Assembly: GCA_047602745.1 (NCBI GenBank)
Contig: JBLKOJ010000001.1
Span: 7,585 to 71,584, forward strand
DNA length: 64,000 nucleotides
Direction: 5' to 3'
Source: Candidatus Woesearchaeota archaeon
GTDB lineage: Archaea; Nanobdellota; Nanobdellia; Woesearchaeales; UBA583
Both the position numbers and the translations under genes were made by a program. Below are positions 21,735 through 41,138 of this stretch, piece by piece; the stretch's first letter is position 1, and each line of letters opens with the position of its first letter. A model generated the notes under the pieces. It saw only the letters and a list, made by a program, of their open reading frames with translations. It ran no database searches and was not told where the DNA came from.

Positions 21735-22865
21735 ATGATAATTTCACAAATTACAGAAGAAAAATATTTACAAGAATGTAGAGAAATTGAAGAAAAATTT
21801 AAAGAAATTATCTCACGAGTGAATTTATCTTATCCTAAACCACTTAATTCTAAAGAAGAGCGTAAAAAATTCTTCAAAAAGCTTAAAGAAGGTAAAGTGT
21901 ATAACCCACAGTTCAAATATGAATTTAAACATGTTCCTGAAAAAGTAATTTTAGAATTGAAAGAATTTAAAGAAAAAATTCCTCTTAAAAATGATTATTA
22001 TGCCTTTAAACGACTCTTAAAACAAAAAGTACAAGAAGATATTTTACTACTTGAGTGCTATAAAACATGGGGGTCTCCTCTTTCAAGTCATTTTAATAAG
22101 CAATTATTTCAAACACCCTCACAACTTCTGCTTATTAAAGCAAAACTTTATTGTAGAAACTTCAAAAGAGAAAAAGTAAGATTTAAACGAATTGATAATA
22201 AAAAACTTGGAAAAGAACTTCAAAGAGAAGTTAAACGTCTAACAGGAGATAAACTCAAAGTTGTTCACAAAAAACTAGCAAATAAAATGAATATTATGGC
22301 TCGTCTTAAAACTGTTGAGATTAATCCCAGTGAGAGCTTTACAAGTTTAGACTTAAAACGGCTTAAAATTCATGAAATTGGAGTTCATTATATGAGATAT
22401 TACAATGCTAAACAACTTGCTCCTTTAGAACTCTTTCAAAGAGGTACTGATCATTATATTGCAACAGAAGAAGGTCTTGCAGTATATAGTGAAGAAAGGG
22501 CCAGAGTTCTCTCAAAAGCTCAAATGTATATTTATGCCGGAAGAGTTCTTGCAACCTATTATTCACAAAAAATGGACTTTTACACTCTTTATCATTACCT
22601 TAGAAAATTTAATTTTAAAGAGAATGATGCATTCTCACTTGCACTTAGAGCTAAAAGAAATATCTGTGATACTTCTCTAGAAGGGGGATACTCTAAAGAT
22701 TATATATATTTCAAAGGATATTATGATGTAAAAGCATTTGCAAAAAAACATAATATTAAACATCTCTTCTTTGGAAAATTCAAAATTGAAGATTATAAAT
22801 ATATAAAACCTTATATCCTTAAAGTTGAAGAACAAATTAAAACTATCTTTGATGAGGAATATTAA
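21735..22865 (+). CDS. DUF1704-family (QEGLA-motif, MATCAP-like) putative metallocarboxypeptidase
   Basis: HEIGVH (HExxH) motif with EEGLAVY downstream (the QEGLA-like motif of DUF1704). About 375 aa. Confidence 0.5.
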   Translation: MIISQITEEKYLQECREIEEKFKEIISRVNLSYPKPLNSKEERKKFFKKLKEGKVYNPQFKYEFKHVPEKVILELKEFKEKIPLKNDYYAFKRLLKQKVQEDILLLECYKTWGSPLSSHFNKQLFQTPSQLLLIKAKLYCRNFKREKVRFKRIDNKKLGKELQREVKRLTGDKLKVVHKKLANKMNIMARLKTVEINPSESFTSLDLKRLKIHEIGVHYMRYYNAKQLAPLELFQRGTDHYIATEEGLAVYSEERARVLSKAQMYIYAGRVLATYYSQKMDFYTLYHYLRKFNFKENDAFSLALRAKRNICDTSLEGGYSKDYIYFKGYYDVKAFAKKHNIKHLFFGKFKIEDYKYIKPYILKVEEQIKTIFDEEY

Positions 22866-22875
22866 GTTACATCTT

Positions 22876-24123
22876 TTACTCATATATATCTTGAATTGTA
22901 AGAGGAAAATTTAATTCTACTATCTTTTTTCCAAGAACTATTACTTTTTGTTGACTCAATATAATTCCATAGTGTTCAAAGACTCTACCTTTTCTAATGC
23001 AATATTGTAAGAACTGCCTAGAATTAGAGAATCGAGTCTGTAAAACTGAGCGCTCAAAATCAATAAAAAAAACTTCATTCAAATTATGTAAATTAATAAA
23101 AATATGTTCTTGAGGATGCGTCATTTCGTCTTTTGAAATGCCTTTGATATCTAAATCATAACATATCTCAAAAACTCTATTCAAAACGCTCTCTAATTCC
23201 TTTAATGACTTATATTTATTGTGATATGAGTTGATAAATTCTTCAATTTGAATTCCATTTATCTTTTCATACATAACAAATCCACTTTGAGAATCAATAT
23301 CAATAGTACTCTCAACAATTTTTGGAGCATACAAAGTATCTTGAAGTTTTTGCAAAAAAAATATCTCTTTTTCAATATGTTGCTTTTTACCAAATTTAAT
23401 CATTACTTTTTTTTTAGTTTGAAGATGTTGAGCTTGCAGAATATGAGAGTGCCTTCCTCTATCAAATCTTAATATGTTTGAATATGAATTTTCAAAGATA
23501 TGTTGTAATACTAACGCAGGTTGCACCTTATATATTAATAACTCTTCAAAAAAGTGATTTTGTGTTGCTATTAATTCAAATTCTAATCCATTTCCTACTA
23601 TACAATCCTCCACAACATTTGGTTGAGTAAGAGATGAGATAAGTATGTAAATTTGAGTCTGAGAATGAATATAATTATGTGAAGAGTCTAAAAATTGATT
23701 TGTCACTTCAAATCCTGCTTTTCCACCATATAAAGCCTTATCTTCAATACAGAGCTTATCAAATCTATCTCCATCTTCACAAGGTAAGTACGGAGTATTA
23801 AAAATAATACTGTCAAATACTTCTTGTTCAAAAGGTTCTAAAAATGAACCAACTTTTGCAGTAATTGAGATATTTTTTTGCTTAGCAAGTCTAAGAGTAT
23901 CCTCAACTGCTTTTGGGTTTATATCAGTTGCATATGCTTCAATTTCATTTGAAAATTCTTCTTTTAATGTTGTAATAATCTCTCCACTCCCACACCCCAC
24001 CTCGCAAATTTTTAAGGGTAAGTTTGAGAAATTAGTTTGGAGTTGTTGTTTGAGATGCTCTTTAGTGGTTTGAAGGAGGAGATATGTATCTTCAGCAGGC
24101 TGATATGTCATACTTTTGATCAA
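22876..24123 (-). CDS. HemK/Mtq2-like SAM methyltransferase fused to a C-terminal Bud32/RIO-like (possibly pseudo-)kinase domain
   Basis: N-terminal half has VGCGSGEI (motif I) and FNTPYLP (NPPY-type motif IV). C-terminal half has VMIKFGKK (VAIK-like lysine), FVMYEKINGIQI (hinge) and FFIDFERS (DFG-like). The HxD catalytic loop looks degenerate. Confidence 0.5.
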   Translation of the reverse strand: MIKSMTYQPAEDTYLLLQTTKEHLKQQLQTNFSNLPLKICEVGCGSGEIITTLKEEFSNEIEAYATDINPKAVEDTLRLAKQKNISITAKVGSFLEPFEQEVFDSIIFNTPYLPCEDGDRFDKLCIEDKALYGGKAGFEVTNQFLDSSHNYIHSQTQIYILISSLTQPNVVEDCIVGNGLEFELIATQNHFFEELLIYKVQPALVLQHIFENSYSNILRFDRGRHSHILQAQHLQTKKKVMIKFGKKQHIEKEIFFLQKLQDTLYAPKIVESTIDIDSQSGFVMYEKINGIQIEEFINSYHNKYKSLKELESVLNRVFEICYDLDIKGISKDEMTHPQEHIFINLHNLNEVFFIDFERSVLQTRFSNSRQFLQYCIRKGRVFEHYGIILSQQKVIVLGKKIVELNFPLTIQDIYE

Positions 24124-24183
24124 TATTTCAATATTTATAAAGTATATCGTAAAATTTTTAAATTGTTAACTTCTGCAAATACA

Positions 24184-24609
24184 ATGACTCAATTAACTCA
24201 AGTAGAAGAATTTAGAAAACTAGCATTTGATAGAATAGGAGCAATTTTAAAAAGTAAAGGAATTGAAAATACTCTTTTAAGAGCCCAATTAAGTAGAGAT
24301 TTTATTGATGTACTTAGTTTGTTAGAAGAACCCTCAAGAACTCCTCTAAATGATTTTGCAAATGATCAAATATCCATAACTCAATTAAGAGATGGCTCAT
24401 ATTTTTGGGGAGGAGTTTTTTGTGATAGACTTAGAAAAAGTCAACTAACGCCCCAACATTTTTCAGGAACTTTAAGTTTAGCATATTCTCAAATACCTCA
24501 ATTGTATGGTGGACTTGTAGATAAAACAGATGATATTTTAGAAGCATTTTATAGAGCACATAAAAGTTTAGATGAACCTGAAAGAGGAGTAATAAGATTA
24601 TTTAATTAA
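24184..24609 (+). CDS. Hypothetical protein (about 140 aa)
   Basis: ORF on the plus strand. I take the start at the internal ATG (24184) to avoid overlap with the convergent gene. Confidence 0.3.
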   Translation: MTQLTQVEEFRKLAFDRIGAILKSKGIENTLLRAQLSRDFIDVLSLLEEPSRTPLNDFANDQISITQLRDGSYFWGGVFCDRLRKSQLTPQHFSGTLSLAYSQIPQLYGGLVDKTDDILEAFYRAHKSLDEPERGVIRLFN

Positions 24610-24694: not shown

Positions 24695-25519
24695 TTATGT
24701 TTTATATATATCAAATAAGAAAGAATTAAATGATACTTCATCCCCTTTAATATAAGATAAGGAAATTTCTCTTTTTAAGTGTGAAATATCTTTTTGATTT
24801 GCATATTTTTTAAAAATACTCAGCCTTTTCTCAAAACTAATTTTAGATAATTCTTGATGTAAGGTAGATAAATCATTAAAAGTAAAGTTAAGTATTAATA
24901 TTTTTAAAACATATAACCAAGCTCTATAGTAGTTTTTCTCAGAATTGGGAACCCCTGAGTTAGTTTCTCCATATAAAGTTATAGTCGCTTCATTTTTTAC
25001 ATTATTGATAAAAACTGTAAGTTGTACTAATGTAGATTGAAGAGGATAATATAATACTTCTCCCAATAAGGTTAATATCTCATCATTCATAGTCTCAGAG
25101 TGTATTTTATTTCTAAAAAAATGAATAAATTCATGAAAGAAAAAAGCTTCTAATACCAATGGGTTTGTAGAGATTTCATTCTGGCAGATATCAGTATCTA
25201 CTAAAATTATAGGATGAGAATCATTGTCTAAAGCAAATCTACCTAAACCTTCTTGAATCACAAACTTAAAAGGAATATTACTATCTATATTAAAACATTT
25301 ATCAATATTAGTAAGAACTCTCCTAATTAATTCTACTAATTTATATAAAAATTGAGTTGATAAACTCATATTTCTAATCAATGAAAAAACGTAGATTCTA
25401 TTACTGTCAGAGAATAAAATATTATCTGTTATAATTTTATTCTTAACCAAGTCAATATTATATTTACTTAGATAAATAATATACTTATCTTCTTCATCTT
25501 TATTAATTAAAGTTATCAT
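24695..25519 (-). CDS. Hypothetical protein with an HExxH motif (FFFHEFIHFF), directly downstream of gyrB
   Basis: 274 aa with a zinc-metallopeptidase-like motif. The start abuts the gyrB stop. Confidence 0.4.
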   Translation of the reverse strand: MITLINKDEEDKYIIYLSKYNIDLVKNKIITDNILFSDSNRIYVFSLIRNMSLSTQFLYKLVELIRRVLTNIDKCFNIDSNIPFKFVIQEGLGRFALDNDSHPIILVDTDICQNEISTNPLVLEAFFFHEFIHFFRNKIHSETMNDEILTLLGEVLYYPLQSTLVQLTVFINNVKNEATITLYGETNSGVPNSEKNYYRAWLYVLKILILNFTFNDLSTLHQELSKISFEKRLSIFKKYANQKDISHLKREISLSYIKGDEVSFNSFLFDIYKT

Positions 25520-27417
25520 TATATATCTAATTCATCTACAAATTTAGCATTTTCAATAATAAAATCTTTTCTTGGTTCAACTTTATCTCCCATTAACATA
25601 GAGAAAATCTCATCTGCTTCAATAGCATCATCAATAGTTACTTTTTTCAAATGTCTTGTTTGAGGATCTAGTGTAGTCTCCCATAATTGATCAGGATTCA
25701 TCTCTCCTAAACCTTTATATCTTTGAATTTCAAATTTCTCATTTGAATGAGTAGTTCTATATTGTGTAAGTTGGTCTTCATCTTGAATCCAAATTTTCTT
25801 TTGCCCTTTTTTAATTCCATACAATGGAGGCATTGCAATATACACGTGACCTTTTAAAATTAATTCTCTGAAGTGTCTAAATAGTAATGTTAAAATTAAT
25901 GTTGCAATGTGAGAACCATCAATATCAGCATCCGCCATGATAATTACTTTGTGATATCTCAACTTCTCATAATCTACTTGTTCTCCAAATCCCATGCCTA
26001 GAGCAGTAATTAATGTTTTAATTTCTTCATTTTCAAGCATTTTTACTAGTCGTGCTTTTTCAACATTAAGCGGTTTTCCTCTAAGTGGTAAAATTGCTTG
26101 AGTCATTCTATCTCTTCCTTGTTTTGCTGAACCCCCCGCCGAGTCTCCCTCTACAATAAATAATTCAGCTTCTTTAGGGTCTCTAATTGAGCAATCAGCA
26201 AGTTTTCCTGGCATTGATGAAAAGTCCAAAGCTGATTTTCTTCTCACTAAATCTCTTGCTTTTTTAGCAGCTTCTCTTGCTTTATTTGCACTTAGTGATT
26301 TTTCAATAATTGCTTGAGCGGCTTTAGGATTCTCATCTAAATACATATAAATTTTTTCAAAAAAGACTTGTTGCACAATTCCTTGGACTTCAGGATTTCC
26401 AAGTTTATCTTTAGTTTGTCCTTCAAATTGTGGCTCTGGAACTCTCACTGAAACAATTGCAGTGATTCCCTCTCTCACATCTTCTCCTGTAAGTGCTACT
26501 TTTTTATCCGCAGCTTTTCCATTGACATTGAGATAATCTTTAATTGCTTTAGTAATTGAGAGTTTAAATCCACTAATATGTGTCCCACCACCTGGTGTTG
26601 TTACGTTATTTACAAATCCTTCAATAACTTCATTAAATGAGTTTGTATAAGTAAGTGCGATATCTACTTCTACATCATCTTTTTCACCAGTTACAAAAAT
26701 AGTATCTTTAATAATTTTCTTGGAATTTTGAGTAATTTCATCTACATATTGAGCAATTCCTCCTTCAAAATGAAATACTTCTTCAATCATTTCTTCGGGT
26801 CGTTCATCTCTAAAAATAATTGTGACATTAGGATTTAAGAATGCAAATTCTCTGTACTTTTTACGCATAGTTTTATAATCATATTCAATAGTTTGAAAAA
26901 TAGTATCATCTGCTAAAAATGTTACTCTTGTACCCGTTTGTTTAGTGAGTCCAATTTCTTGCAATCCTTTTCTTGCTTTTTGATTTTCAAACTCAAGCAA
27001 ATATTCTTTTCCATTTTTATGAATCTCAACTTTCATCCATTTTGATAGAGCATTTACTACACTTGAACCTACTCCGTGAAGACCTCCTGAAACTTTATAT
27101 GAACCTTTATCAAACTTACCTCCTGCATGAAGAACTGTAAAAATAATTTCTGCAGCTGACTTTCCTTTGGAGTGTGCATCAACTGGAACACCTCTTCCAT
27201 TATCTCCAACACTTACAGAATTATCTTTGTGGATAGTAATATCAATTTTATCACAGTGTCCCGCTAAAGCTTCATCCATTGCATTATCTACCAACTCTTT
27301 TACTAAATGATGAAGACCATTAATTCCTGTCCCTCCAATATACATTCCAGGTCTTTTCCTCACTGCTTCAAGACCTTCTAAAACTTTAATATTTTTTGCT
27401 CCATAATCCTCTGACAT
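25519..27417 (-). CDS. gyrB: DNA gyrase subunit B
   Basis: Full GHKL ATPase and TOPRIM motifs (LHAGGKFD, GLHGVGSSVVNALS, EGDSAGGSAKQGRDR, PLRGKPLNVEKA, DADIDGSHI). 632 aa. Confidence 0.92.
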   Translation of the reverse strand: MSEDYGAKNIKVLEGLEAVRKRPGMYIGGTGINGLHHLVKELVDNAMDEALAGHCDKIDITIHKDNSVSVGDNGRGVPVDAHSKGKSAAEIIFTVLHAGGKFDKGSYKVSGGLHGVGSSVVNALSKWMKVEIHKNGKEYLLEFENQKARKGLQEIGLTKQTGTRVTFLADDTIFQTIEYDYKTMRKKYREFAFLNPNVTIIFRDERPEEMIEEVFHFEGGIAQYVDEITQNSKKIIKDTIFVTGEKDDVEVDIALTYTNSFNEVIEGFVNNVTTPGGGTHISGFKLSITKAIKDYLNVNGKAADKKVALTGEDVREGITAIVSVRVPEPQFEGQTKDKLGNPEVQGIVQQVFFEKIYMYLDENPKAAQAIIEKSLSANKAREAAKKARDLVRRKSALDFSSMPGKLADCSIRDPKEAELFIVEGDSAGGSAKQGRDRMTQAILPLRGKPLNVEKARLVKMLENEEIKTLITALGMGFGEQVDYEKLRYHKVIIMADADIDGSHIATLILTLLFRHFRELILKGHVYIAMPPLYGIKKGQKKIWIQDEDQLTQYRTTHSNEKFEIQRYKGLGEMNPDQLWETTLDPQTRHLKKVTIDDAIEADEIFSMLMGDKVEPRKDFIIENAKFVDELDI

Positions 27418-31068: not shown

Positions 31069-31314
31069 TTATCCATTATAGAGCACCTCTATTTCAGCAA
31101 TAATATTCATAATTTCTGTCCTTGTAAAAGAATCTATTTTAAATATTGAAGTAAATTGTTCCAAATCTTCTTGAATTTTAATTAATTCTTCATCAGTGAG
31201 ATAATCTTTTTTCATTATAGAAATTATTTTTTTTAACTCTTCTTTAGGTTTAAAACTTAAATCTTCAACTAGTGATTCTAATGTTTCAACAAAATATTCA
31301 ATTTCAGTATCCAT
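31069..31314 (-). CDS. Small acidic hypothetical protein (81 aa) in the L37ae-RpoP-Pcc1 operon
   Basis: Overlaps the Pcc1 gene end. Predicted helical and acidic. Confidence 0.35.
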   Translation of the reverse strand: MDTEIEYFVETLESLVEDLSFKPKEELKKIISIMKKDYLTDEELIKIQEDLEQFTSIFKIDSFTRTEIMNIIAEIEVLYNG

Positions 31315-31570
31315 TTTTATTTGTATATATTTGAATTACTTCTTGGGTTTTTCTTATAACTTCACAACTATCATTTATAGCTGTCGTTACAATTTTAAGT
31401 AATTGTGGTGTTTGAGCTTCAATTTCAACAAGAACTTGTGAGTTTACATTGTCAACTGAAATCTCAATACTAATTTGCTTATTCTTAAAATCATAATCTT
31501 CGCTTTTGAGTAGTTCGTATAATTCCTTTGAGTTTTTTGATTTATATCTTAATGTAGCACTACATTTCAT
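31304..31570 (-). CDS. pcc1: KEOPS complex subunit Pcc1-like protein
   Basis: About 88 aa. Pattern ...ATLRYKSKNSKELYELL...ISIEISVDNVNSQVLVEIEAQTPQLLKIVTTAINDS fits the Pcc1 fold. Sits in the conserved archaeal neighbourhood with L37ae and RpoP. Confidence 0.5.
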   Translation of the reverse strand: MKCSATLRYKSKNSKELYELLKSEDYDFKNKQISIEISVDNVNSQVLVEIEAQTPQLLKIVTTAINDSCEVIRKTQEVIQIYTNKNGY

Positions 31571-31707
31571 CTTGCTTTAACAATTTGAGAAACTTCTGGT
31601 TTCATTTTTTGAAAAATTTTTGAATCACAAAATGGACATCTTACTCTTCTCCCTCTAATATTTTCAGGAACTTCTTTTTTACAATTAAAACATTTATATA
31701 TTACCAT
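31567..31707 (-). CDS. rpoP: DNA-directed RNA polymerase subunit P (RpoP/Rpb12), 46 aa; absent from the supplied ORF track
   Basis: Translation MVIYKCFNCKKEVPENIRGRRVRCPFCDSKIFQKMKPEVSQIVKAR gives a CxxC...CxxC zinc ribbon typical of RpoP. Its stop overlaps the Pcc1 start (ATGA). Confidence 0.65.
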   Translation of the reverse strand: MVIYKCFNCKKEVPENIRGRRVRCPFCDSKIFQKMKPEVSQIVKAR

Positions 31708-31776
31708 TTTAGTTGAGATTATAATTTAATTATTAGTATTATTTACTAAAATATTTATCTTAAAAACTTATAACTT

Positions 31777-31992
31777 TTAATATGGTTTATATGCTTTTCC
31801 AACAAATACTTTTTCACAGGAACTACATTTCCAGATTCCGTATGCTATTCTTTTAACTTTTCCTTCTTTCCCACAATATGGGCACTTGTGTTTAGCTCTT
31901 GAAGTTGATTCAACGGTATTTACTTTTTTTCTCAGCATATTACCATATCTAACACCAAATCTTCCAGCTGAATTTGATACTTTTTTTGTCAT
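31777..31992 (-). CDS. rpl37ae: 50S ribosomal protein L37ae (eL43)
   Basis: CPYCGKEGKVKRIAYGIWKCSSCEKVFVGKAYKP zinc-ribbon signature. 71 aa. Confidence 0.85.
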   Translation of the reverse strand: MTKKVSNSAGRFGVRYGNMLRKKVNTVESTSRAKHKCPYCGKEGKVKRIAYGIWKCSSCEKVFVGKAYKPY

Positions 31993-38338: not shown

Positions 38339-38983
38339 CTATAGTTTAAATAAATAATCTTTAATAATATTAAAATGAAATGTTTGTTTTTCTTTATTTT
38401 CTTCATTAATAGCTGTAATATATTGTTTTTGTATAGATTTGATAGTATATTTAATTCCTTTTATTTGAACTATATCTTTGGGTTTTAAATTATATATTGC
38501 AGCAAGAAGAGAGTGTCTATATAAGTCCTTACCTTTTAGCTTATTTCTTCCCATGATTTTTTTAGAATGCGTAAATATGCAAAAAAAATGTTCATTGATG
38601 ACTCTTTTAAGCTTGTGAATATCATTAATGTTGGCTAAATAGATATCAAACCCATCCAGATTGTCTTCTATTTTATTAATTAATAATTTAACATTTCTTA
38701 AAATATATTTAAGTTTAAAGTATGCTAAATCATACTCTGATATTAATATTTCATTATATTTTATATCTTTGTTAGAATAAATTGTTTGAGTTGCTTTATT
38801 TTCATATAATAAATACGTCTGTTCTATCTCATTTAACTTTTTATTGATATCTTCTTTATTATAAAAATATAATCTAAATTGAACTCTGCATTCATAATAG
38901 TCATCATGCATTTTTTTACTAATTGGAGACATTTTCTGCTCCATTTCTAATTCCACTTGAAATGAATCTTTTATAATAACCAT
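38339..38983 (-). CDS. Hypothetical protein (214 aa) inside the inverted-repeat-bounded segment
   Basis: The only long ORF between the inverted repeats. No Walker motif or other recognised motif. Confidence 0.4.
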   Translation of the reverse strand: MVIIKDSFQVELEMEQKMSPISKKMHDDYYECRVQFRLYFYNKEDINKKLNEIEQTYLLYENKATQTIYSNKDIKYNEILISEYDLAYFKLKYILRNVKLLINKIEDNLDGFDIYLANINDIHKLKRVINEHFFCIFTHSKKIMGRNKLKGKDLYRHSLLAAIYNLKPKDIVQIKGIKYTIKSIQKQYITAINEENKEKQTFHFNIIKDYLFKL

Positions 38984-39284
38984 ATTTATATTTGTACCTT
39001 ATAATTTAAATTATTATTTATTATTTATAAATGATACTACTATTAATAACATTAATTTTTATCTATTAAATTTTTTATAGAGACTATATAAAGCGATATT
39101 ATAAATATGTCATAAGTAATCGTGAAAGAAATTTTACAAATAATATAATAAAATTATTAACATTAAAAAGAACTATAAAAATTTACAACTAATCATTAAT
39201 AATATTTTTATTAATATATTTAACTAATATTAATTTTTAAATTTTAAAGATAAAGTTAAAATCAAGTATTGATACTAACAACTT

Positions 39285-39313
39285 AAATCTAAATCTAAAT
39301 CTAAATCTAATCT
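39285..39313. repeat. Hexanucleotide microsatellite (AAATCT)x4 plus a partial unit
   Basis: Direct tandem repeat read from the sequence. Confidence 0.8.
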
Positions 39314-39399
39314 CAAAATTAAAAAATACTATTAAAAATACTATTGAAAATTTATAACTTAGAAATTTATCATATATATTTTAATATTTTATTTTGTGT

Positions 39400-39720
39400 T
39401 GTTTAATCTATTGTTTATTTAATTTTTTTTGCATTTATTTCAAATTTACTTTTATTTATTATTTTATCATATTTATTTTTATTTAAGTTCTATTTATATA
39501 TTGTATTATATTTGTTTCAATTTTTATTTATATTATACCAATATTTACATTTGAATTCGTACTTCTCTACTTTAAAGTCTATTTTTATTCTCACTTTATT
39601 TTTATATTTTTCTTATCTTTACTTTACTTCTTCCCTTATTATTTTTTAATCATTTATTATTTTTATATTACTTTACACCACATTTACATTCACATATTTA
39701 TTATTTATACTAAAAATAGT
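39400..39720. other. G-depleted, T/C-rich strand-asymmetric tract (about 2% G on the plus strand) with no ORF
   Basis: Manual base inspection finds only about 7 G in 300 nt, against about 10% C and 55% T. Confidence 0.5.
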
Positions 39721-39815
39721 GTTTTAATAATGTATTTATTTCTTTTGCAGATACATATTTGTTTAAATTATATCTAAATTAGTATATACAATTATAAGAC
39801 TATATTTAAGTTTAT

Positions 39816-40055
39816 TTAGACAAAATTTAGACAAGACTTAGAATTAAATCTCATTAATTTAAATTATTAAAATTTTAAAAATTCAACTTTAAAGTCTGAA
39901 TTCCCTACTTAAACTAAGGTTTCAAACAAATTTTAGTTGTTTAATATTACTTGTTTTTAGTTATTTCTAATTGTATATTTTATCATTTTAGACAAGTTTT
40001 AGACAATTATTAAACGAGTTTATTTTTATTTTAGACAAGTTTTAGACAATTATTA
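39816..40055. repeat. Iteron-like direct repeats, six copies of TTAGACAA, including two perfect 27-bp repeats (TTTTAGACAAGTTTTAGACAATTATTA at 39986..40012 and 40029..40055)
   Basis: Exact repeat coordinates read from the sequence. Copies at 39816, 39827, 39988, 39999, 40031 and 40042. Confidence 0.75.
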
Positions 40056-40094
40056 GAATTTTTCATTAAAATAAAACCATAAATTTTGTTTTTT

Positions 40095-40116
40095 GTCATT
40101 TCCAGTAGAAATTAAG
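40095..40116. repeat. Right arm of the inverted repeat (GTCATTTCCAGTAGAAATTAAG)
   Basis: Pairs with 38161..38182. The core TTCCAGTAGAAAT resembles the archaeal mini-ORB core (TTCCAGTGGAAAC) as I remember it. Confidence 0.6.
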
Positions 40117-40511
40117 GTCTTAGTCTTTTGTAAAAAATTTAAGAATTATTATTAAAGATATTATTTTATGAATTTGGTATTAATAAAATTCAAATTGAAA
40201 ATACGTAAGTTTATAAATATACTAATCATATATACATTAATTAGTTATAAGACTCTTTACTTAAGTGTCATATTGATTTGTTTGTGATTGCTATACATAT
40301 CTTTATAGGTAGGTTTAGATGGAAAAATTAAATTTACATGTTAAAAATATTAAATATTACATAAAATTTCAATCAAGTAGTTTATAGTTATTAACTATAG
40401 ATATAAAATGAAATTTGTGTGAGGATTAAGTTTAATTTTTCTAAGTGTATAAATAAAAGTAAACAAATTAAGAATATTAGGTAAAGATTTTTAAGCTTTT
40501 TTTAGGGAAAA

Positions 40512-41138
40512 ATGAAAGAAGTTGAATTAAAAGTTAGAAATATTAACAAGCAAGACATCATTGATAAAATTACTGAAATTGGGGCGGTGAGAGTTTTTAG
40601 CGGGAAAGTTATTGATTTTAGATTTGATACCCCAGATAGAGATTTATCTAGGCAAGGAAAGGCGTTGAGAATTAGGCAAAAAGGCTCATATATATATTTA
40701 AATTTAAAAGGAAAAAAAAAATCTAAGGAGAGTATTATAGGAAGAGATGAAATCGGAGTTAAAATATCTAATTTTAAAACAATGCAGAGAATTTTACATG
40801 AATTAGGCTATATTAAAATTTTTGAACTTGTTAAATATAGAACACAATTTAGGTTTAAAGATATCACTTTTGATATTGATGAATATGCAGGATTAGACCC
40901 CATTTTAGAAATTGAGAGTAATTCATATGAAAAAGTTAGAGAGTATGTGGATTTATTAAACATTCAAGAGGAAGACATAGGAAGAGTATACATTAGAGAA
41001 ATATTGGAGGCTAAGAGAACAATTTCCACAAAAGAATTTTTAGATAGTAAGTATAAAAAAGATAAATATCGATATTCTCCCAAACATTCCAAAATTAAAC
41101 AAGATAAGGAGGAAGATGATTTAGATTGTGATGACTAA
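40512..41138 (+). CDS. CYTH-domain protein (CyaB/thiamine-triphosphatase-like)
   Basis: N-terminal EVELK (ExExK motif), about 200 aa with alternating charged beta-strand pattern and a C-terminal acidic tail. Confidence 0.6.
   Translation: MKEVELKVRNINKQDIIDKITEIGAVRVFSGKVIDFRFDTPDRDLSRQGKALRIRQKGSYIYLNLKGKKKSKESIIGRDEIGVKISNFKTMQRILHELGYIKIFELVKYRTQFRFKDITFDIDEYAGLDPILEIESNSYEKVREYVDLLNIQEEDIGRVYIREILEAKRTISTKEFLDSKYKKDKYRYSPKHSKIKQDKEEDDLDCDD

What the first reader, a model, noticed from the sequence alone, without database searches (positions are those of the whole stretch)
22876..24123. Fusion of an Mtq2/HemK-like methyltransferase with a Bud32/RIO-like (pseudo)kinase domain, in a genome region that also encodes Pcc1
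The N-terminal 200 aa carry SAM motif I (VGCGSGEI) and an NPPY-type motif (FNTPYLP), typical of protein-glutamine or N6-adenine MTases such as archaeal Mtq2. The C-terminal ~200 aa show a small-kinase pattern (VMIKFGKK, hinge YEKINGIQI, IDFERS) but an apparently degenerate catalytic loop. Bud32 is the kinase of the KEOPS/t6A machinery, and a Pcc1-like gene is present at 31304..31570. Tethering an Mtq2-like methyltransferase to a Bud32-like domain would link translation-factor or tRNA modification activities in a way I cannot recall being described.
Basis: partly seen in the sequence, partly recalled or inferred. Interest (0 to 1): 0.55.

Follow-up and report, generated by a model that had tools for sequence, protein, structure and literature searches.

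The report
Release-factor methyltransferase fused to ArkI-like kinase
A real, widely conserved gene of tiny DPANN archaea joins the enzyme that methylates the translation release factor to a small kinase domain whose nearest characterized relative phosphorylates tRNA, a pairing no paper in the searchable library describes and whose function is untested.

Summary
The ORF is real: 22876..24123 on the minus strand, with the true start probably the ATG at 24111 (411 aa). It is not a mis-join. About 100 of the 147 best family representatives at 50% identity carry the same fusion. In other genomes the two halves are separate, translationally coupled genes in the same order.

The N-terminal half is the archaeal HemK2/Mtq2 orthologue. 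It passes NCBIfam TIGR00537 and matches N6AMT1/Mtq2 structures at TM 0.81-0.87.

The C-terminal half is an intact minimal kinase fold, but not Bud32 or RIO. It belongs to the ArkI/AQ578 (COG2112) superfamily, in a large uncharacterized subfamily typified by PDB 8yv4 (profile E=2.5e-28). TkArkI scores E=7.8e-9, hhalign gives 99%, and TkArkI is the top Foldseek hit. The catalytic loop is non-canonical (K-x-E...P..H, DFER) but invariant, so this is probably an active enzyme rather than a pseudokinase.

The KEOPS/Pcc1 link is not supported.

The same kinase module also fuses to an Ogt (O6-alkylguanine alkyltransferase) domain, including one Mtq2-kinase-Ogt triple fusion.

My inference is an RNA-binding ATP-dependent phosphotransferase physically coupled to the aRF1 methyltransferase. 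The function is untested.

The parts
22876..24111 (-). Most likely CDS (411 aa plus stop) of the Mtq2-kinase fusion. The mechanical ORF extends to a TTG at 24123.
   Evidence: Homologues and the identical NCBI protein P0001 start at this ATG, and the TTG lies inside the promoter region.
24132..24141 (-). TATA-like box TTTATAAATA about 26 nt upstream of the ATG. It implies a leaderless or short-leader transcript.
   Evidence: Read directly from the sequence. Its function as a promoter is inferred.
23518..24111 (-). HemK2/Mtq2-type class I SAM methyltransferase domain (ORF residues 5-202).
   Evidence: NCBIfam TIGR00537 scores 96.6 bits against a cutoff of 87. Pfam MTS and Methyltransf_31 match. 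Foldseek matches N6AMT1/KMT9 and Mtq2 structures at TM 0.81-0.87 on the target.
23977..24003 (-). SAM-binding motif I, EVGCGSGEI (residues 41-49).
   Evidence: G43 and G45 are invariant in alignment A1.
23788..23799 (-). Catalytic (N/D)PPY-type motif, here N-T-P-Y (residues 109-112).
   Evidence: N109, P111 and Y112 are invariant. Across the 100 fused representatives the motif is NPPY in 74, NAPY in 9 and NTPY in 7.
22879..23517 (-). Minimal protein-kinase-fold domain of the ArkI/AQ578 superfamily, 8yv4-type subfamily (residues 203-415).
   Evidence: Profile against PDB: 8yv4 E=2.5e-28, TkArkI 7vnx E=7.8e-9. hhalign against ArkI: 99.0%, E=5e-18. Domain-only model: pLDDT 93.9, pTM 0.90. Foldseek rank 1 is TkArkI.
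23446..23460 (-). Glycine-loop remnant R222-G-R-H-S226, equivalent to ArkI K32/G33.
   Evidence: G223 is present in 196 of 197 family domains.
23365..23397 (-). Beta-3 lysine K243 and helix-C glutamate E253, equivalent to ArkI K51 and E65.
   Evidence: K243 is present in 164 of 164 and E253 in 163 of 164 DPANN-type domains.
23104..23133 (-). Variant catalytic loop K331-D-E333-M-T-H-P337-Q-E-H340. It replaces the HRD...N loop of protein kinases and the HGQ...KH loop of ArkI.
   Evidence: K331, E333 and P337 are 100% conserved and H340 is 96% conserved. Position 339 is Lys in 146 of 164 domains but Glu here.
23050..23061 (-). Metal-binding loop D355-F-E-R358. DFE replaces DFG, as in ArkI.
   Evidence: DFER occurs in 132 of 147 representatives. 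D355 is 100% conserved. DFE is described for ArkI in PMC9095486.
23014..23025 (-). Subdomain-IX motif N367-S-R-Q370 (family consensus N-x-T-Q), equivalent to ArkI N160/T162.
   Evidence: N367 is 100% and Q370 is 98% conserved. T369 is present in 78% of domains and is Arg here.

Best explanation
SHOWN: this is a genuine two-domain protein conserved in Woesearchaeota/Nanoarchaeota-type (DPANN) archaea. Its N-terminal half is the archaeal HemK2/Mtq2 orthologue. In Haloferax that enzyme methylates the GGQ glutamine of release factor aRF1. Its C-terminal half is a complete minimal kinase fold from the ArkI/AQ578 (COG2112) superfamily. It belongs to a large, distinct, uncharacterized subfamily typified by the Geoglobus acetivorans protein solved as PDB 8yv4. 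That subfamily keeps all ATP/Mg2+-site residues and has its own invariant catalytic loop (K-x-E-M-x-x-P-x-x-H, DFER, N-x-T-Q). The two modules are linked repeatedly in evolution, either fused or as translationally coupled adjacent genes. INFERRED: the kinase-like domain is an active ATP-dependent phosphotransferase, or an ATPase, and not a pseudokinase. It probably binds RNA, as ArkI does when it 2'-phosphorylates tRNA U47. It probably works as a physically attached partner of Mtq2, so that methylation of aRF1 and an ATP-dependent step on an RNA of the translation apparatus are coordinated. The logic resembles the Kae1-Bud32 pair, where a small atypical kinase/ATPase is tethered to a modification enzyme. 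The phosphorylation target and any effect on methylation are unknown.
For: Domain identities rest. The fusion is real and widespread: 25 full-length homologues, and 1,584 family representatives with 100 of the top 147 fused. Of 31 species-level genome loci, about 18 are fused. Split forms are true operons with 4-8 nt stop/start overlaps in the same M-then-K order (L024, L028, L031). Fused and split forms are interleaved in the domain tree, which implies repeated fusion and fission. The full-length AlphaFold model is a single confident body (pTM 0.86) with high pLDDT across the junction. The active site is under strong selection: G223, K243, E253, D325, K331, E333, P337, D355, E357 and N367 are about 100% conserved over 197 domains. 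These map onto the ArkI residues whose alanine mutants lose activity (K32/G33, K51, E65, D149, N160, H138). The kinase domain is strongly basic family-wide (median net charge +15, against +6 for Thermococcales ArkI), while the fused MTase domain is acidic (median -3). The archaeal Mtq2 function and its usual need for a solubilizing partner come from PMC6144793.
Against: No biochemical data exist for any member of the subfamily, and no paper was found for 8yv4. The ArkI-defining HGQ catalytic triplet is replaced by K-D-E, so the chemistry or substrate may differ from ArkI. The window protein belongs to a derived subclade that has lost features tied to ArkI activity or tRNA binding. Lys at the ArkI-K137 position is Glu here, T162 is Arg, the alpha-7 YK(R) motif is absent, and the net charge is only +2. 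Standalone members exist with no Mtq2 nearby: Geoglobus, Archaeoglobales-type, L015, L022 and L023. The module therefore does not always depend on Mtq2. The same module also fuses to Ogt, which a translation-centred model does not explain. The domain interface could not be inspected because no coordinates or PAE were available.
Confidence: 0.42

Rival explanations
1. Trm112 substitute or regulatory hub. The kinase-fold domain mainly acts as a structural or allosteric partner. It solubilizes or activates Mtq2 (and, in other lineages, Ogt), taking the role Trm112 plays elsewhere. ATP binding would be regulatory, not part of catalysis on a third substrate.
For: Most Trm112-dependent MTases, including archaeal Mtq2, are insoluble without Trm112, and Trm112 is missing from some archaeal orders (PMC6144793). 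The module partners with two unrelated enzymes, Mtq2 and Ogt, which is hub-like behaviour. The model is a rigid two-domain body. No Trm112-like ORF lies in the window, though that is weak evidence for a 64-kb fragment.
Against: A purely structural role does not explain about 100% conservation of the Lys/Glu/Asp/Asn ATP-Mg site and the K-x-E loop. Standalone members exist far from any Mtq2. The presence or absence of Trm112 in these genomes was not testable here.
Confidence: 0.2
2. Nucleic-acid modification or repair module. The NxPY methyltransferase acts on a DNA or RNA base rather than on aRF1. Together with a polynucleotide kinase-like domain and Ogt, it forms a repair or modification unit.
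For: Kinase-Ogt fusions keep an intact PCHR active site, and there is one M-K-Ogt triple fusion (L026). DNA-repair genes recur as neighbours: Hef in 7 loci and UvrA in 4. (N/D)PPY methyltransferases include DNA and RNA amino-methyltransferases (general knowledge). TrmM appears among the structural matches. The L026 MTase half hits a PADLOC 'mad2' methyltransferase model.
Against: The MTase passes the curated HemK2/Mtq2 model. The split-operon MTase of L028 also passes the PRK14968.1-3 equivalog model (167.7 bits against a cutoff of 162). The best structural matches are all protein-glutamine/lysine MTases. The MTase domain is acidic, which is atypical for nucleic-acid MTases. The window protein has no PADLOC hit. 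The other recurrent neighbours (TFB, NifU, GyrB, PolB) look like plain housekeeping synteny.
Confidence: 0.13
3. Fusion by genome compaction without functional coupling. Two independent enzymes (aRF1 methyltransferase and an ArkI-like RNA kinase) were neighbours in an ancestral operon. They were welded together in streamlined DPANN genomes.
For: DPANN genomes are compact. The genes overlap by 4-8 nt when split. The L017 reading frame even runs on from an M24 peptidase gene. Outside DPANN the two genes are unlinked.
Against: The linkage persists to about 30% identity and across repeated fusion and fission, always in the same order. The model predicts a fixed interface. Neither point is decisive.
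Confidence: 0.17
4. One reading: a Bud32/RIO-like pseudokinase that ties Mtq2 to the KEOPS/t6A machinery.
For: Bud32 is the second-closest solved family to the subfamily (8unk_B E=0.008; 2vwb E=0.045). Other family members give weak TIGR03724 hits (33.8 bits). In one distant locus (L035) the fusion lies directly downstream of Sua5.
Against: The window domain gives no Bud32 or RIO model hit at E<1. Relatives score far below the Bud32 cutoff (33.8 against 125). ArkI is clearly closer. The window ORFs checked include no Kae1 or Bud32. The Pcc1-like ORF sits in the standard L37Ae-RpoP cluster 7 kb away. The catalytic residues are invariant, not degenerate.
Confidence: 0.03

Closest known systems
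ArkI (archaeal RNA kinase; COG2112 / AQ578 family; TkArkI, PDB 7vnx), the tRNA U47 2'-O-kinase
   Same: Both are minimal two-lobe kinase folds of about 200 aa lacking subdomains VIII and X. Both have DFE in place of DFG. The P-loop K/R-G, beta-3 Lys, helix-C Glu, the His after the catalytic loop and the subdomain-IX Asn are all conserved. Most of the family has a basic surface and an alpha-7 Y/F-K motif. TkArkI is the best characterized sequence and structure match.
   Different: The catalytic loop is K-x-E-M-x-x-P-x-x-H instead of D-H-G-Q-I-Q-G-G-K-H. Identity is only about 17-23%. The profile score to ArkI is 38.7 bits, against 102 bits to 8yv4, so this is a separate subfamily. It is fused or operonic with Mtq2 and/or Ogt, whereas all 120 listed Thermococcales ArkI relatives are standalone-length proteins of 180-223 aa. 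The substrate is unknown.
Geoglobus acetivorans 'putative serine/threonine protein kinase' (PDB 8yv4/8yv5; P0182, 175 aa)
   Same: It is in the same subfamily, sharing GRHS, K-E-E-M-N-H-P-x-R-H, IDFER and P-S-N-L-T-Q-F (profile E=2.5e-28).
   Different: It is a standalone protein that starts right at the glycine-loop strand. It lies in a feoB-DtxR/FeoA-kinase-rubrerythrin context with no Mtq2 nearby. No publication or function was found.
Mtq2-Trm112 (HemK2/N6AMT1/KMT9-TRMT112) release-factor glutamine methyltransferase
   Same: The N-terminal half passes the archaeal HemK2/Mtq2 model. It has the SAM motif I and an NxPY site, and it superposes on N6AMT1 and Mtq2 structures.
   Different: The motif is NTPY instead of NPPY in this subclade. 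The MTase is covalently joined to a kinase-fold domain rather than bound to the small zinc-knuckle activator Trm112. Whether Trm112 is still used is unknown.
Kae1-Bud32 fusion of Methanocaldococcus jannaschii (KEOPS; PDB 2vwb, 3en9)
   Same: It is an analogy of design: a small atypical kinase/ATPase of the same broad branch is fused to a modification enzyme of the translation apparatus. Bud32 is the second-nearest solved family.
   Different: The catalytic partner is different (Kae1, not Mtq2). The domain order is similar, but the kinase family differs and Bud32 model cutoffs are not met.

Membership tests
HemK2/Mtq2 family protein methyltransferase (NCBIfam TIGR00537) | Score at or above the curated model cutoff | tested here: met
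   The score is 96.6 bits against a cutoff of 87, covering residues 7-199. The split-operon orthologue in L028 scores 121 bits.
HemK2/Mtq2 family protein methyltransferase (NCBIfam TIGR00537) | SAM motif I and the (N/D)PPY substrate-amide pocket | tested here: met
   EVGCGSGEI is present. The pocket motif is N109-T-P111-Y112, with N, P and Y invariant. The second position is T here and P in 74 of 100 fused representatives.
HemK2/Mtq2 family protein methyltransferase (NCBIfam TIGR00537) | Fold match to solved Mtq2/N6AMT1 structures | tested here: met
   Foldseek gives E=1e-14 and TM 0.81-0.87 on the target for 9fke, 6kmr, 6ped and 6h1d, and matches 3q87 Mtq2.
HemK2/Mtq2 family protein methyltransferase (NCBIfam TIGR00537) | Methylates the GGQ glutamine of aRF1/eRF1 and partners with Trm112 | not testable with these tools
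   This needs biochemistry and whole-genome Trm112 profiling. No Trm112-like ORF lies in the 64-kb window.
ArkI (COG2112/AQ578) tRNA U47 2'-kinase | Significant sequence and profile homology, and best fold match | tested here: met
   hmmsearch gives E=7.8e-9. hhalign gives 99.0% and E=5e-18. Foldseek ranks TkArkI first, with TM 0.65/0.64.
ArkI (COG2112/AQ578) tRNA U47 2'-kinase | DFE metal-binding loop, P-loop K-G, beta-3 Lys and helix-C Glu | tested here: met
   D355-F-E357, R222-G223, K243 and E253 are all present and about 100% conserved.
ArkI (COG2112/AQ578) tRNA U47 2'-kinase | HGQ catalytic triplet and catalytic-loop Lys (H130, Q132, K137), all required for activity | tested here: not met
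   The triplet is replaced by K331-D-E333, which is invariant in the subfamily. The K137 equivalent is E339 in this protein and Lys in 146 of 164 relatives.
ArkI (COG2112/AQ578) tRNA U47 2'-kinase | Alpha-7 YKR motif and a large basic patch for tRNA binding | tested here: inconclusive
   A [YF][KR] motif is present in 129 of 197 family domains and the median charge is +15. In the window protein the motif is absent (GKKIVEL) and the net charge is +2.
ArkI (COG2112/AQ578) tRNA U47 2'-kinase | ATP-dependent 2'-phosphorylation of tRNA U47 | not testable with these tools
   This needs an enzyme assay or tRNA mass spectrometry. The one class-I tRNA in the window (tRNA-His) does have U47, which is not diagnostic.
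8yv4-type kinase-like subfamily (unnamed) | G-[KR]-H/R-S/G loop; L-D-x2-G-I-x-K-x-E-M-x-x-P-x-x-H; I-D-F-E-R; N-x-T-Q-F | tested here: met
   The profile scores 102 bits (E=2.5e-28) against 8yv4. All motifs are present, with T changed to R in N-S-R-Q-F.
Bud32 (KEOPS kinase/ATPase; NCBIfam TIGR03724) | Score at or above the model cutoff | tested here: not met
   The window C-terminal half gives no NCBIfam hit at E<1. The relatives P0182 and L028 score 33.8 and 26 bits against a cutoff of 125.
Bud32 (KEOPS kinase/ATPase; NCBIfam TIGR03724) | Genomic or physical association with Kae1 | tested here: not met
   Ten size-matched window ORFs scanned with Pfam gave no Kae1 or Bud32 match, and no other ORF in the window matched the kinase-domain profile. 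The 33 DPANN-type related loci (L001-L031, L034, L035) show no recurrent Kae1 neighbour among the annotated clusters.
RIO kinases (Pfam PF01163) | Pfam RIO1 domain match | tested here: not met
   The window protein gives no hit at E<1. One distant family member (P0157) scores 23.7 bits against a cutoff of 22, and RIO2 structures score only E~1e-3 against the profile.

The most novel reading that the evidence does not exclude
The 8yv4-type domains form a second, unrecognized family of RNA-directed kinases/ATPases, paralogous to ArkI. In DPANN archaea they serve as a modular ATP-dependent partner that is fused or translationally coupled to Mtq2 and to Ogt. Under this reading the domain would either install a new internal RNA phosphate mark or gate release-factor methylation with ATP. 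It might also replace Trm112 as the Mtq2 activator.
Probability: 0.25. Interest if true: 0.75.

Novelty: new variant of a known kind. Interest (0 to 1): 0.55.

Why it matters
Internal RNA phosphorylation by ArkI was only discovered in 2022, and ArkI is so far the only writer known. A large sister family with a different but invariant catalytic loop suggests further ATP-dependent chemistry on RNA or RNP substrates.

Its repeated coupling to the release-factor methyltransferase gives a concrete, testable entry point: does ATP or RNA control aRF1 methylation in archaea with minimal genomes? It also bears on how Mtq2 works where Trm112 may be missing.

The additional coupling to Ogt is unexplained. 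It could reveal a shared regulatory or scaffolding role for a kinase-fold module.

In practical terms, public annotation names these proteins only 'HemK2/MTQ2 methyltransferase' and leaves half of the protein unannotated. Pfam has no model for that half.

Tried and rejected
- **Frameshift or mis-join:** rejected, because the fusion is conserved in more than 100 clusters at 50% identity and gives a single confident model.
- **Split operons as sequencing frameshifts of fusions:** rejected, because they have proper ATG/GTG starts with 4-8 nt stop/start overlaps.
- **Bud32/RIO identity:** rejected.
- **Anti-phage defence or R-M methyltransferase:** the window protein has no PADLOC hit.
- **Literature on 8yv4, Geoglobus kinase, Mtq2+ArkI:** nothing found. 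One broad 'ArkI' search was swamped by 'ARKit' papers.
- **Paralogy test:** I tried to learn whether genomes with the 8yv4 type also have a true HGQ-type ArkI. The last homologue search, with a TkArkI fragment, returned only Thermococcales. The ArkI paper's supplements do not mention Archaeoglobales or DPANN. The question is unresolved.
- **Taxon names for metagenome representatives:** none are recorded.
- **Model coordinates and PAE:** not exposed, so I could not check the inter-domain interface or whether it covers the Trm112-binding edge.
- **Conserved-neighbour analysis:** it gave mostly housekeeping synteny (GyrB/PolB, TFB, NifU, Hef, UvrA) and no aRF1, KptA or tRNA-gene linkage.
- **Trm112 in the window:** not found, which is uninformative for a 64-kb fragment.
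Full report
**1. The observation**

A 415-codon ORF occupies 22876..24123 on the minus strand. All homologues, and the 100%-identical NCBI protein P0001 (411 aa, 'HemK2/MTQ2 family protein methyltransferase [Candidatus Woesearchaeota archaeon]'), begin at the residue-5 methionine. A TATA-like TTTATAAATA lies about 26 nt upstream of that ATG. The real CDS is therefore most likely 22876..24111. The window is about 27% G+C and carries archaeal PolB, GyrB/GyrA, GatE, L37Ae and RpoP.

**2. The fusion is real**

A database search found 25 full-length homologues (389-411 aa) down to 32% identity, named Woesearchaeota, Nanoarchaeota or Nanoarchaeia where a name exists.

An exhaustive HMMER search with the C-terminal domain profile alone found 1,584 representatives at 50% identity (317 at E<=1e-30). 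Of the 147 new representatives among the 150 best hits, 100 carry both domains and 47 carry the kinase-like domain only.

AlphaFold2 on the 21-sequence alignment gives one confident two-domain model. It has pLDDT 91.3 and pTM 0.86, with high confidence across the junction at about residue 200-215.

**3. The N-terminal half**

Pfam finds generic class-I methyltransferase domains, including MTS. NCBIfam TIGR00537 (HemK2/MTQ2, archaeal) scores 96.6 bits against a cutoff of 87.

Foldseek places residues 1 to about 200 on N6AMT1/HemK2/KMT9 (E~1e-14, TM 0.81-0.87 on the target) and on E. cuniculi Mtq2, ahead of PrmC, TrmM and PrmA.

The catalytic motif is NTPY here. Among fused representatives it is NPPY in 74, NAPY in 9 and NTPY in 7.

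Archaeal Mtq2-Trm112 methylates the aRF1 GGQ glutamine in an aRF3/GTP-dependent way. Mtq2 orthologues occur in all archaeal phyla. Mtq2 is usually insoluble without Trm112, and Trm112 is absent from some orders (PMC6144793).

**4. The C-terminal half**

Pfam and NCBIfam give nothing at E<1 for this half.

The whole protein hits PDB 8yv4/8yv5 ('putative serine/threonine protein kinase', 174-175 aa) at E=5.5e-12. A profile of 20 C-terminal domains hits 8yv4 at E=2.5e-28 (102 bits) and TkArkI (7vnx) at E=7.8e-9. CK2 and RIO2 score only about 1e-3.

8yv4 is a Geoglobus acetivorans protein (P0182). A profile-profile comparison with ten Thermococcales ArkI sequences gives 99.0% probability and E=5e-18 over 146 columns.

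A domain-only model is very confident (pLDDT 93.9, pTM 0.90). Its top Foldseek hit in the PDB is TkArkI, with full-length coverage (TM 0.65/0.64). Generic protein kinases follow, and no Bud32 or RIO appears in the top 50.

For the solved relative P0182, the PDB ranking is ArkI (5.5e-8), then Bud32 (8unk_B 0.008; 2vwb/3en9 0.045), and nothing else below E=1. Family members give weak Bud32-model hits far below cutoff (33.8 bits against 125).

The fold is therefore an intact small kinase. 'Bud32-like' is true only at superfamily level. The nearest characterized enzyme is ArkI, the ATP-dependent tRNA U47 2'-O-kinase of COG2112/AQ578 (PMC9095486).

**5. The active site**

ArkI replaces HRD with HGQ and DFG with DFE. 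Alanine mutants of K32, G33, K51, E65, H130, Q132, K137, D149, N160, T162 and K201 lose activity.

Conservation was measured in an alignment of 197 domains of this family:

| Window residue | ArkI equivalent | Conservation |
|---|---|---|
| G223 | G33 | about 100% |
| K243 | K51 | about 100% |
| E253 | E65 | about 100% |
| D355 | D149 | about 100% |
| E357 | E151 | about 100% |
| N367 | N160 | about 100% |
| H340 | H138 | 96% |
| K331 | H130 (substituted) | 100% |
| E333 | Q132 (substituted) | 100% |
| P337 | none | 100% |

An invariant Glu at the catalytic-base position, together with a complete ATP/Mg site, argues for an active phosphotransferase or ATPase and against a pseudokinase.

The domain is strongly basic across the family (median net charge +15, IQR +7..+21). 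Thermococcales ArkI has a median of +6. The fused MTase domain is acidic (median -3).

One caveat applies. The window protein and its closest relatives are derived. Position 339 is Glu where ArkI has K137 and 146 of 164 relatives have Lys. T369 is Arg. The alpha-7 [YF][KR] motif, present in 129 of 197 domains, is missing. The net charge is only +2.

**6. Evolutionary linkage**

A scan of species-representative genomes returned 31 loci. All are Woese/Nanoarchaeota-type MAGs, and a few carry evidently wrong labels. They fall into four groups:

- About 18 loci have the fusion.
- L024, L028, L029 and L031 have separate MTase and kinase genes abutting on the same strand.
- L013, L014 and L021 have the two genes 0.8-1.2 kb apart.
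- L015, L022 and L023 have the kinase alone.

The split forms are genuine operons. The downstream gene has its own ATG that overlaps the upstream stop by 4-8 nt in L024, L028 and L031.

A rough NJ tree of the kinase domains shows one uniformly fused clade, which includes the window. A second clade has K, M|K, MK, K-Ogt and M-K-Ogt architectures interleaved, which implies repeated fusion and fission.

Outside DPANN the linkage disappears. In Geoglobus (two species) and a third Archaeoglobales-type contig (L038) the gene follows feoB and a DtxR/FeoA gene. A further standalone member (L037) lies among tRNA-related genes, and none of the four has an Mtq2 nearby.

**7. An unexpected third partner**

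Five kinase-only representatives, and the L021, L024 and L031 genes, carry a C-terminal PF01035 (MGMT/Ogt) domain. Most keep an intact PCHR active site, and NCBIfam confirms 'ogt'. L019 has the kinase gene followed by an overlapping Ogt gene. L026 is a 483-aa Mtq2-kinase-Ogt triple fusion. L025 and L028 have an Ogt gene 2-5 kb downstream. The window has no Ogt-like ORF.

Recurrent neighbours are otherwise housekeeping genes:

- Hef in 7 loci and TFB in 7.
- A small Pfam-less ORF abutting the MTase start in 7 loci.
- NifU in 5 and UvrA in 4.
- GyrB/PolB synteny in the window's own subclade.
- Sua5 directly upstream in one locus (L035).

**8. The KEOPS idea**

The Pcc1-like ORF (31304..31570, minus strand) has only a sub-threshold Pfam match. 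It sits in the usual L37Ae-RpoP-Pcc1 arrangement, 7 kb from the fusion. No Kae1, Bud32 or other kinase-like ORF was found among the window ORFs checked. Nothing ties the fusion to t6A synthesis.

**9. Interpretation**

What is shown: an Mtq2 orthologue is covalently or operonically coupled to an ArkI-superfamily kinase domain that has a conserved but variant active site.

What is inferred:
- The domain is catalytically active and binds RNA, based on its basic surface, ArkI homology, and the RNA/RNP-directed nature of its nearest families (ArkI, Bud32, RIO).
- It acts together with Mtq2 on the translation apparatus, in the manner of the Kae1-Bud32 pairing.

I put about 0.4 on this reading. The rivals are listed below with their evidence:
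- a Trm112-substitute or hub role;
- a nucleic-acid repair or modification module with Ogt;
- compaction-driven fusion of unrelated neighbours.

Mis-join and Bud32/KEOPS readings are essentially excluded.

**10. Novelty**

Both domain superfamilies are known. The 8yv4-type subfamily, its K-x-E catalytic loop, and its recurrent coupling to Mtq2 and Ogt were not found in the searchable literature. Pfam and NCBIfam do not model it. I rate it a new variant of a known kind, of moderate interest.

Noticed in passing
L026:2489-3937; L024:5785-6744; L031:3463-4392; L021:5926-6867; L019:2-921; proteins P0093, P0157, P0163, P0177, P0150: The same kinase-like module is recurrently fused at its C-terminus to an MGMT/Ogt catalytic domain (PF01035). 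The PCHR active site is intact in most. L026 is an Mtq2-kinase-Ogt triple fusion and L019 has overlapping kinase and Ogt genes. The functional logic is unexplained.
   Followed up: partly
L017:201-716, L020:1291-1779, L024:4628-5191, L027:4907-5389, L030:1601-2089, L031:2500-2967, L025:2-370: A conserved ~150-aa ORF without a Pfam match (motifs LRKYEKP...LQPGDSRD...SNIRRQLLRLRD, possibly a winged-helix protein) abuts or overlaps the start of the MTase gene on the same strand in 7 loci. It may be a further operon member. No such ORF clustered with these in the ~17-kb stretch around the window gene that was included in the comparison.
   Followed up: partly
L035:6998-7957: In one distant fusion-bearing genome, Sua5/TsaC (the first enzyme of t6A synthesis) lies directly upstream on the same strand, preceded by UvrA. 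It is a single case and not recurrent in the other loci.
   Followed up: no
L017:713-2887: A 725-codon stop-free frame joins an M24 metallopeptidase domain (PF00557, with Creatinase_N) to the MTase-kinase fusion. It could be a triple fusion, or two genes that happen to be in frame.
   Followed up: no
window 38900-40600: This is a gene-free stretch with 18% G+C at the point where GC skew switches from negative to positive. Gene orientation flips from mostly minus to mostly plus here. The stretch contains multiple TTTTAGACAA(G/A)TTTTAGACAA repeats (39810-39840, 39985-40055). It is a candidate replication origin.
   Followed up: partly
window 3556-5336 (-): A DpnII-type restriction-modification pair: the DpnII endonuclease (PF04556, E=5e-91) overlaps a D12-class N6-adenine DNA methyltransferase (PF02086, E=8e-67).
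   Followed up: no
window 61367-61441 and 61562-61581: tRNA-His (GTG) is followed about 120 nt downstream by a 20-nt near-copy of its own 3' end (CAAATCCCaTGCGTGGACC). This may be a remnant attachment site of an integrated element. tRNA-Ser (GGA) follows at 61631-61715.
   Followed up: no
window 31069-31992 (-): The standard archaeal cluster L37Ae (71 aa), RpoP (46 aa) and a Pcc1-like ORF (88 aa; Pfam Pcc1 only 15.6 bits, below cutoff), followed by an 81-aa ORF without a Pfam or NCBIfam match.
   Followed up: partly
window 21735-22865 (+): The convergent neighbour is a MATCAP / QEGLA-motif family protein (PF08014, E=3e-37; TIGR02421 at 127 bits, below its cutoff of 338). This family is better known from eukaryotic tubulin tyrosine carboxypeptidases and bacterial proteins.
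   Followed up: no
window 24037-24609 (+): The mechanical ORF overlaps the 5' end of the fusion gene by about 87 nt. Its likely true start is the ATG at 24184 (MTQLTQVEEF...), which gives a divergent ~141-aa gene with no family match and a 72-nt shared promoter region.
   Followed up: no
L032:5393-6528, L036:3387-4528, L038:3344-4594: Standalone Archaeoglobales-type members, including the solved 8yv4 protein, keep a conserved feoB, then DtxR/FeoA, then kinase-like gene order. The start overlaps the upstream gene by 4 nt in Geoglobus. The next gene is rubrerythrin or, in L038, a 66-aa TRAM-domain protein.
   Followed up: partly
L034:5051-7915: The GyrB gene upstream of the fusion in a 1.09-Mb Woesearchaeota-type contig contains an intein (PF14890). 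The syntenic GyrB in the window (25519-27417) is 632 aa, against 954 aa for the intein-bearing copy, so it appears to lack one.
   Followed up: no
L002, L005, L012, L013, L018, L024, L025, L029, L030 (record titles); L007: Several contigs carrying this Woese/Nanoarchaeota-type gene are labelled 'uncultured Methanosarcinales archaeon' or 'Bdellovibrionales bacterium' in their public records. These are probably taxonomic mislabels or mis-binned contigs.
   Followed up: no
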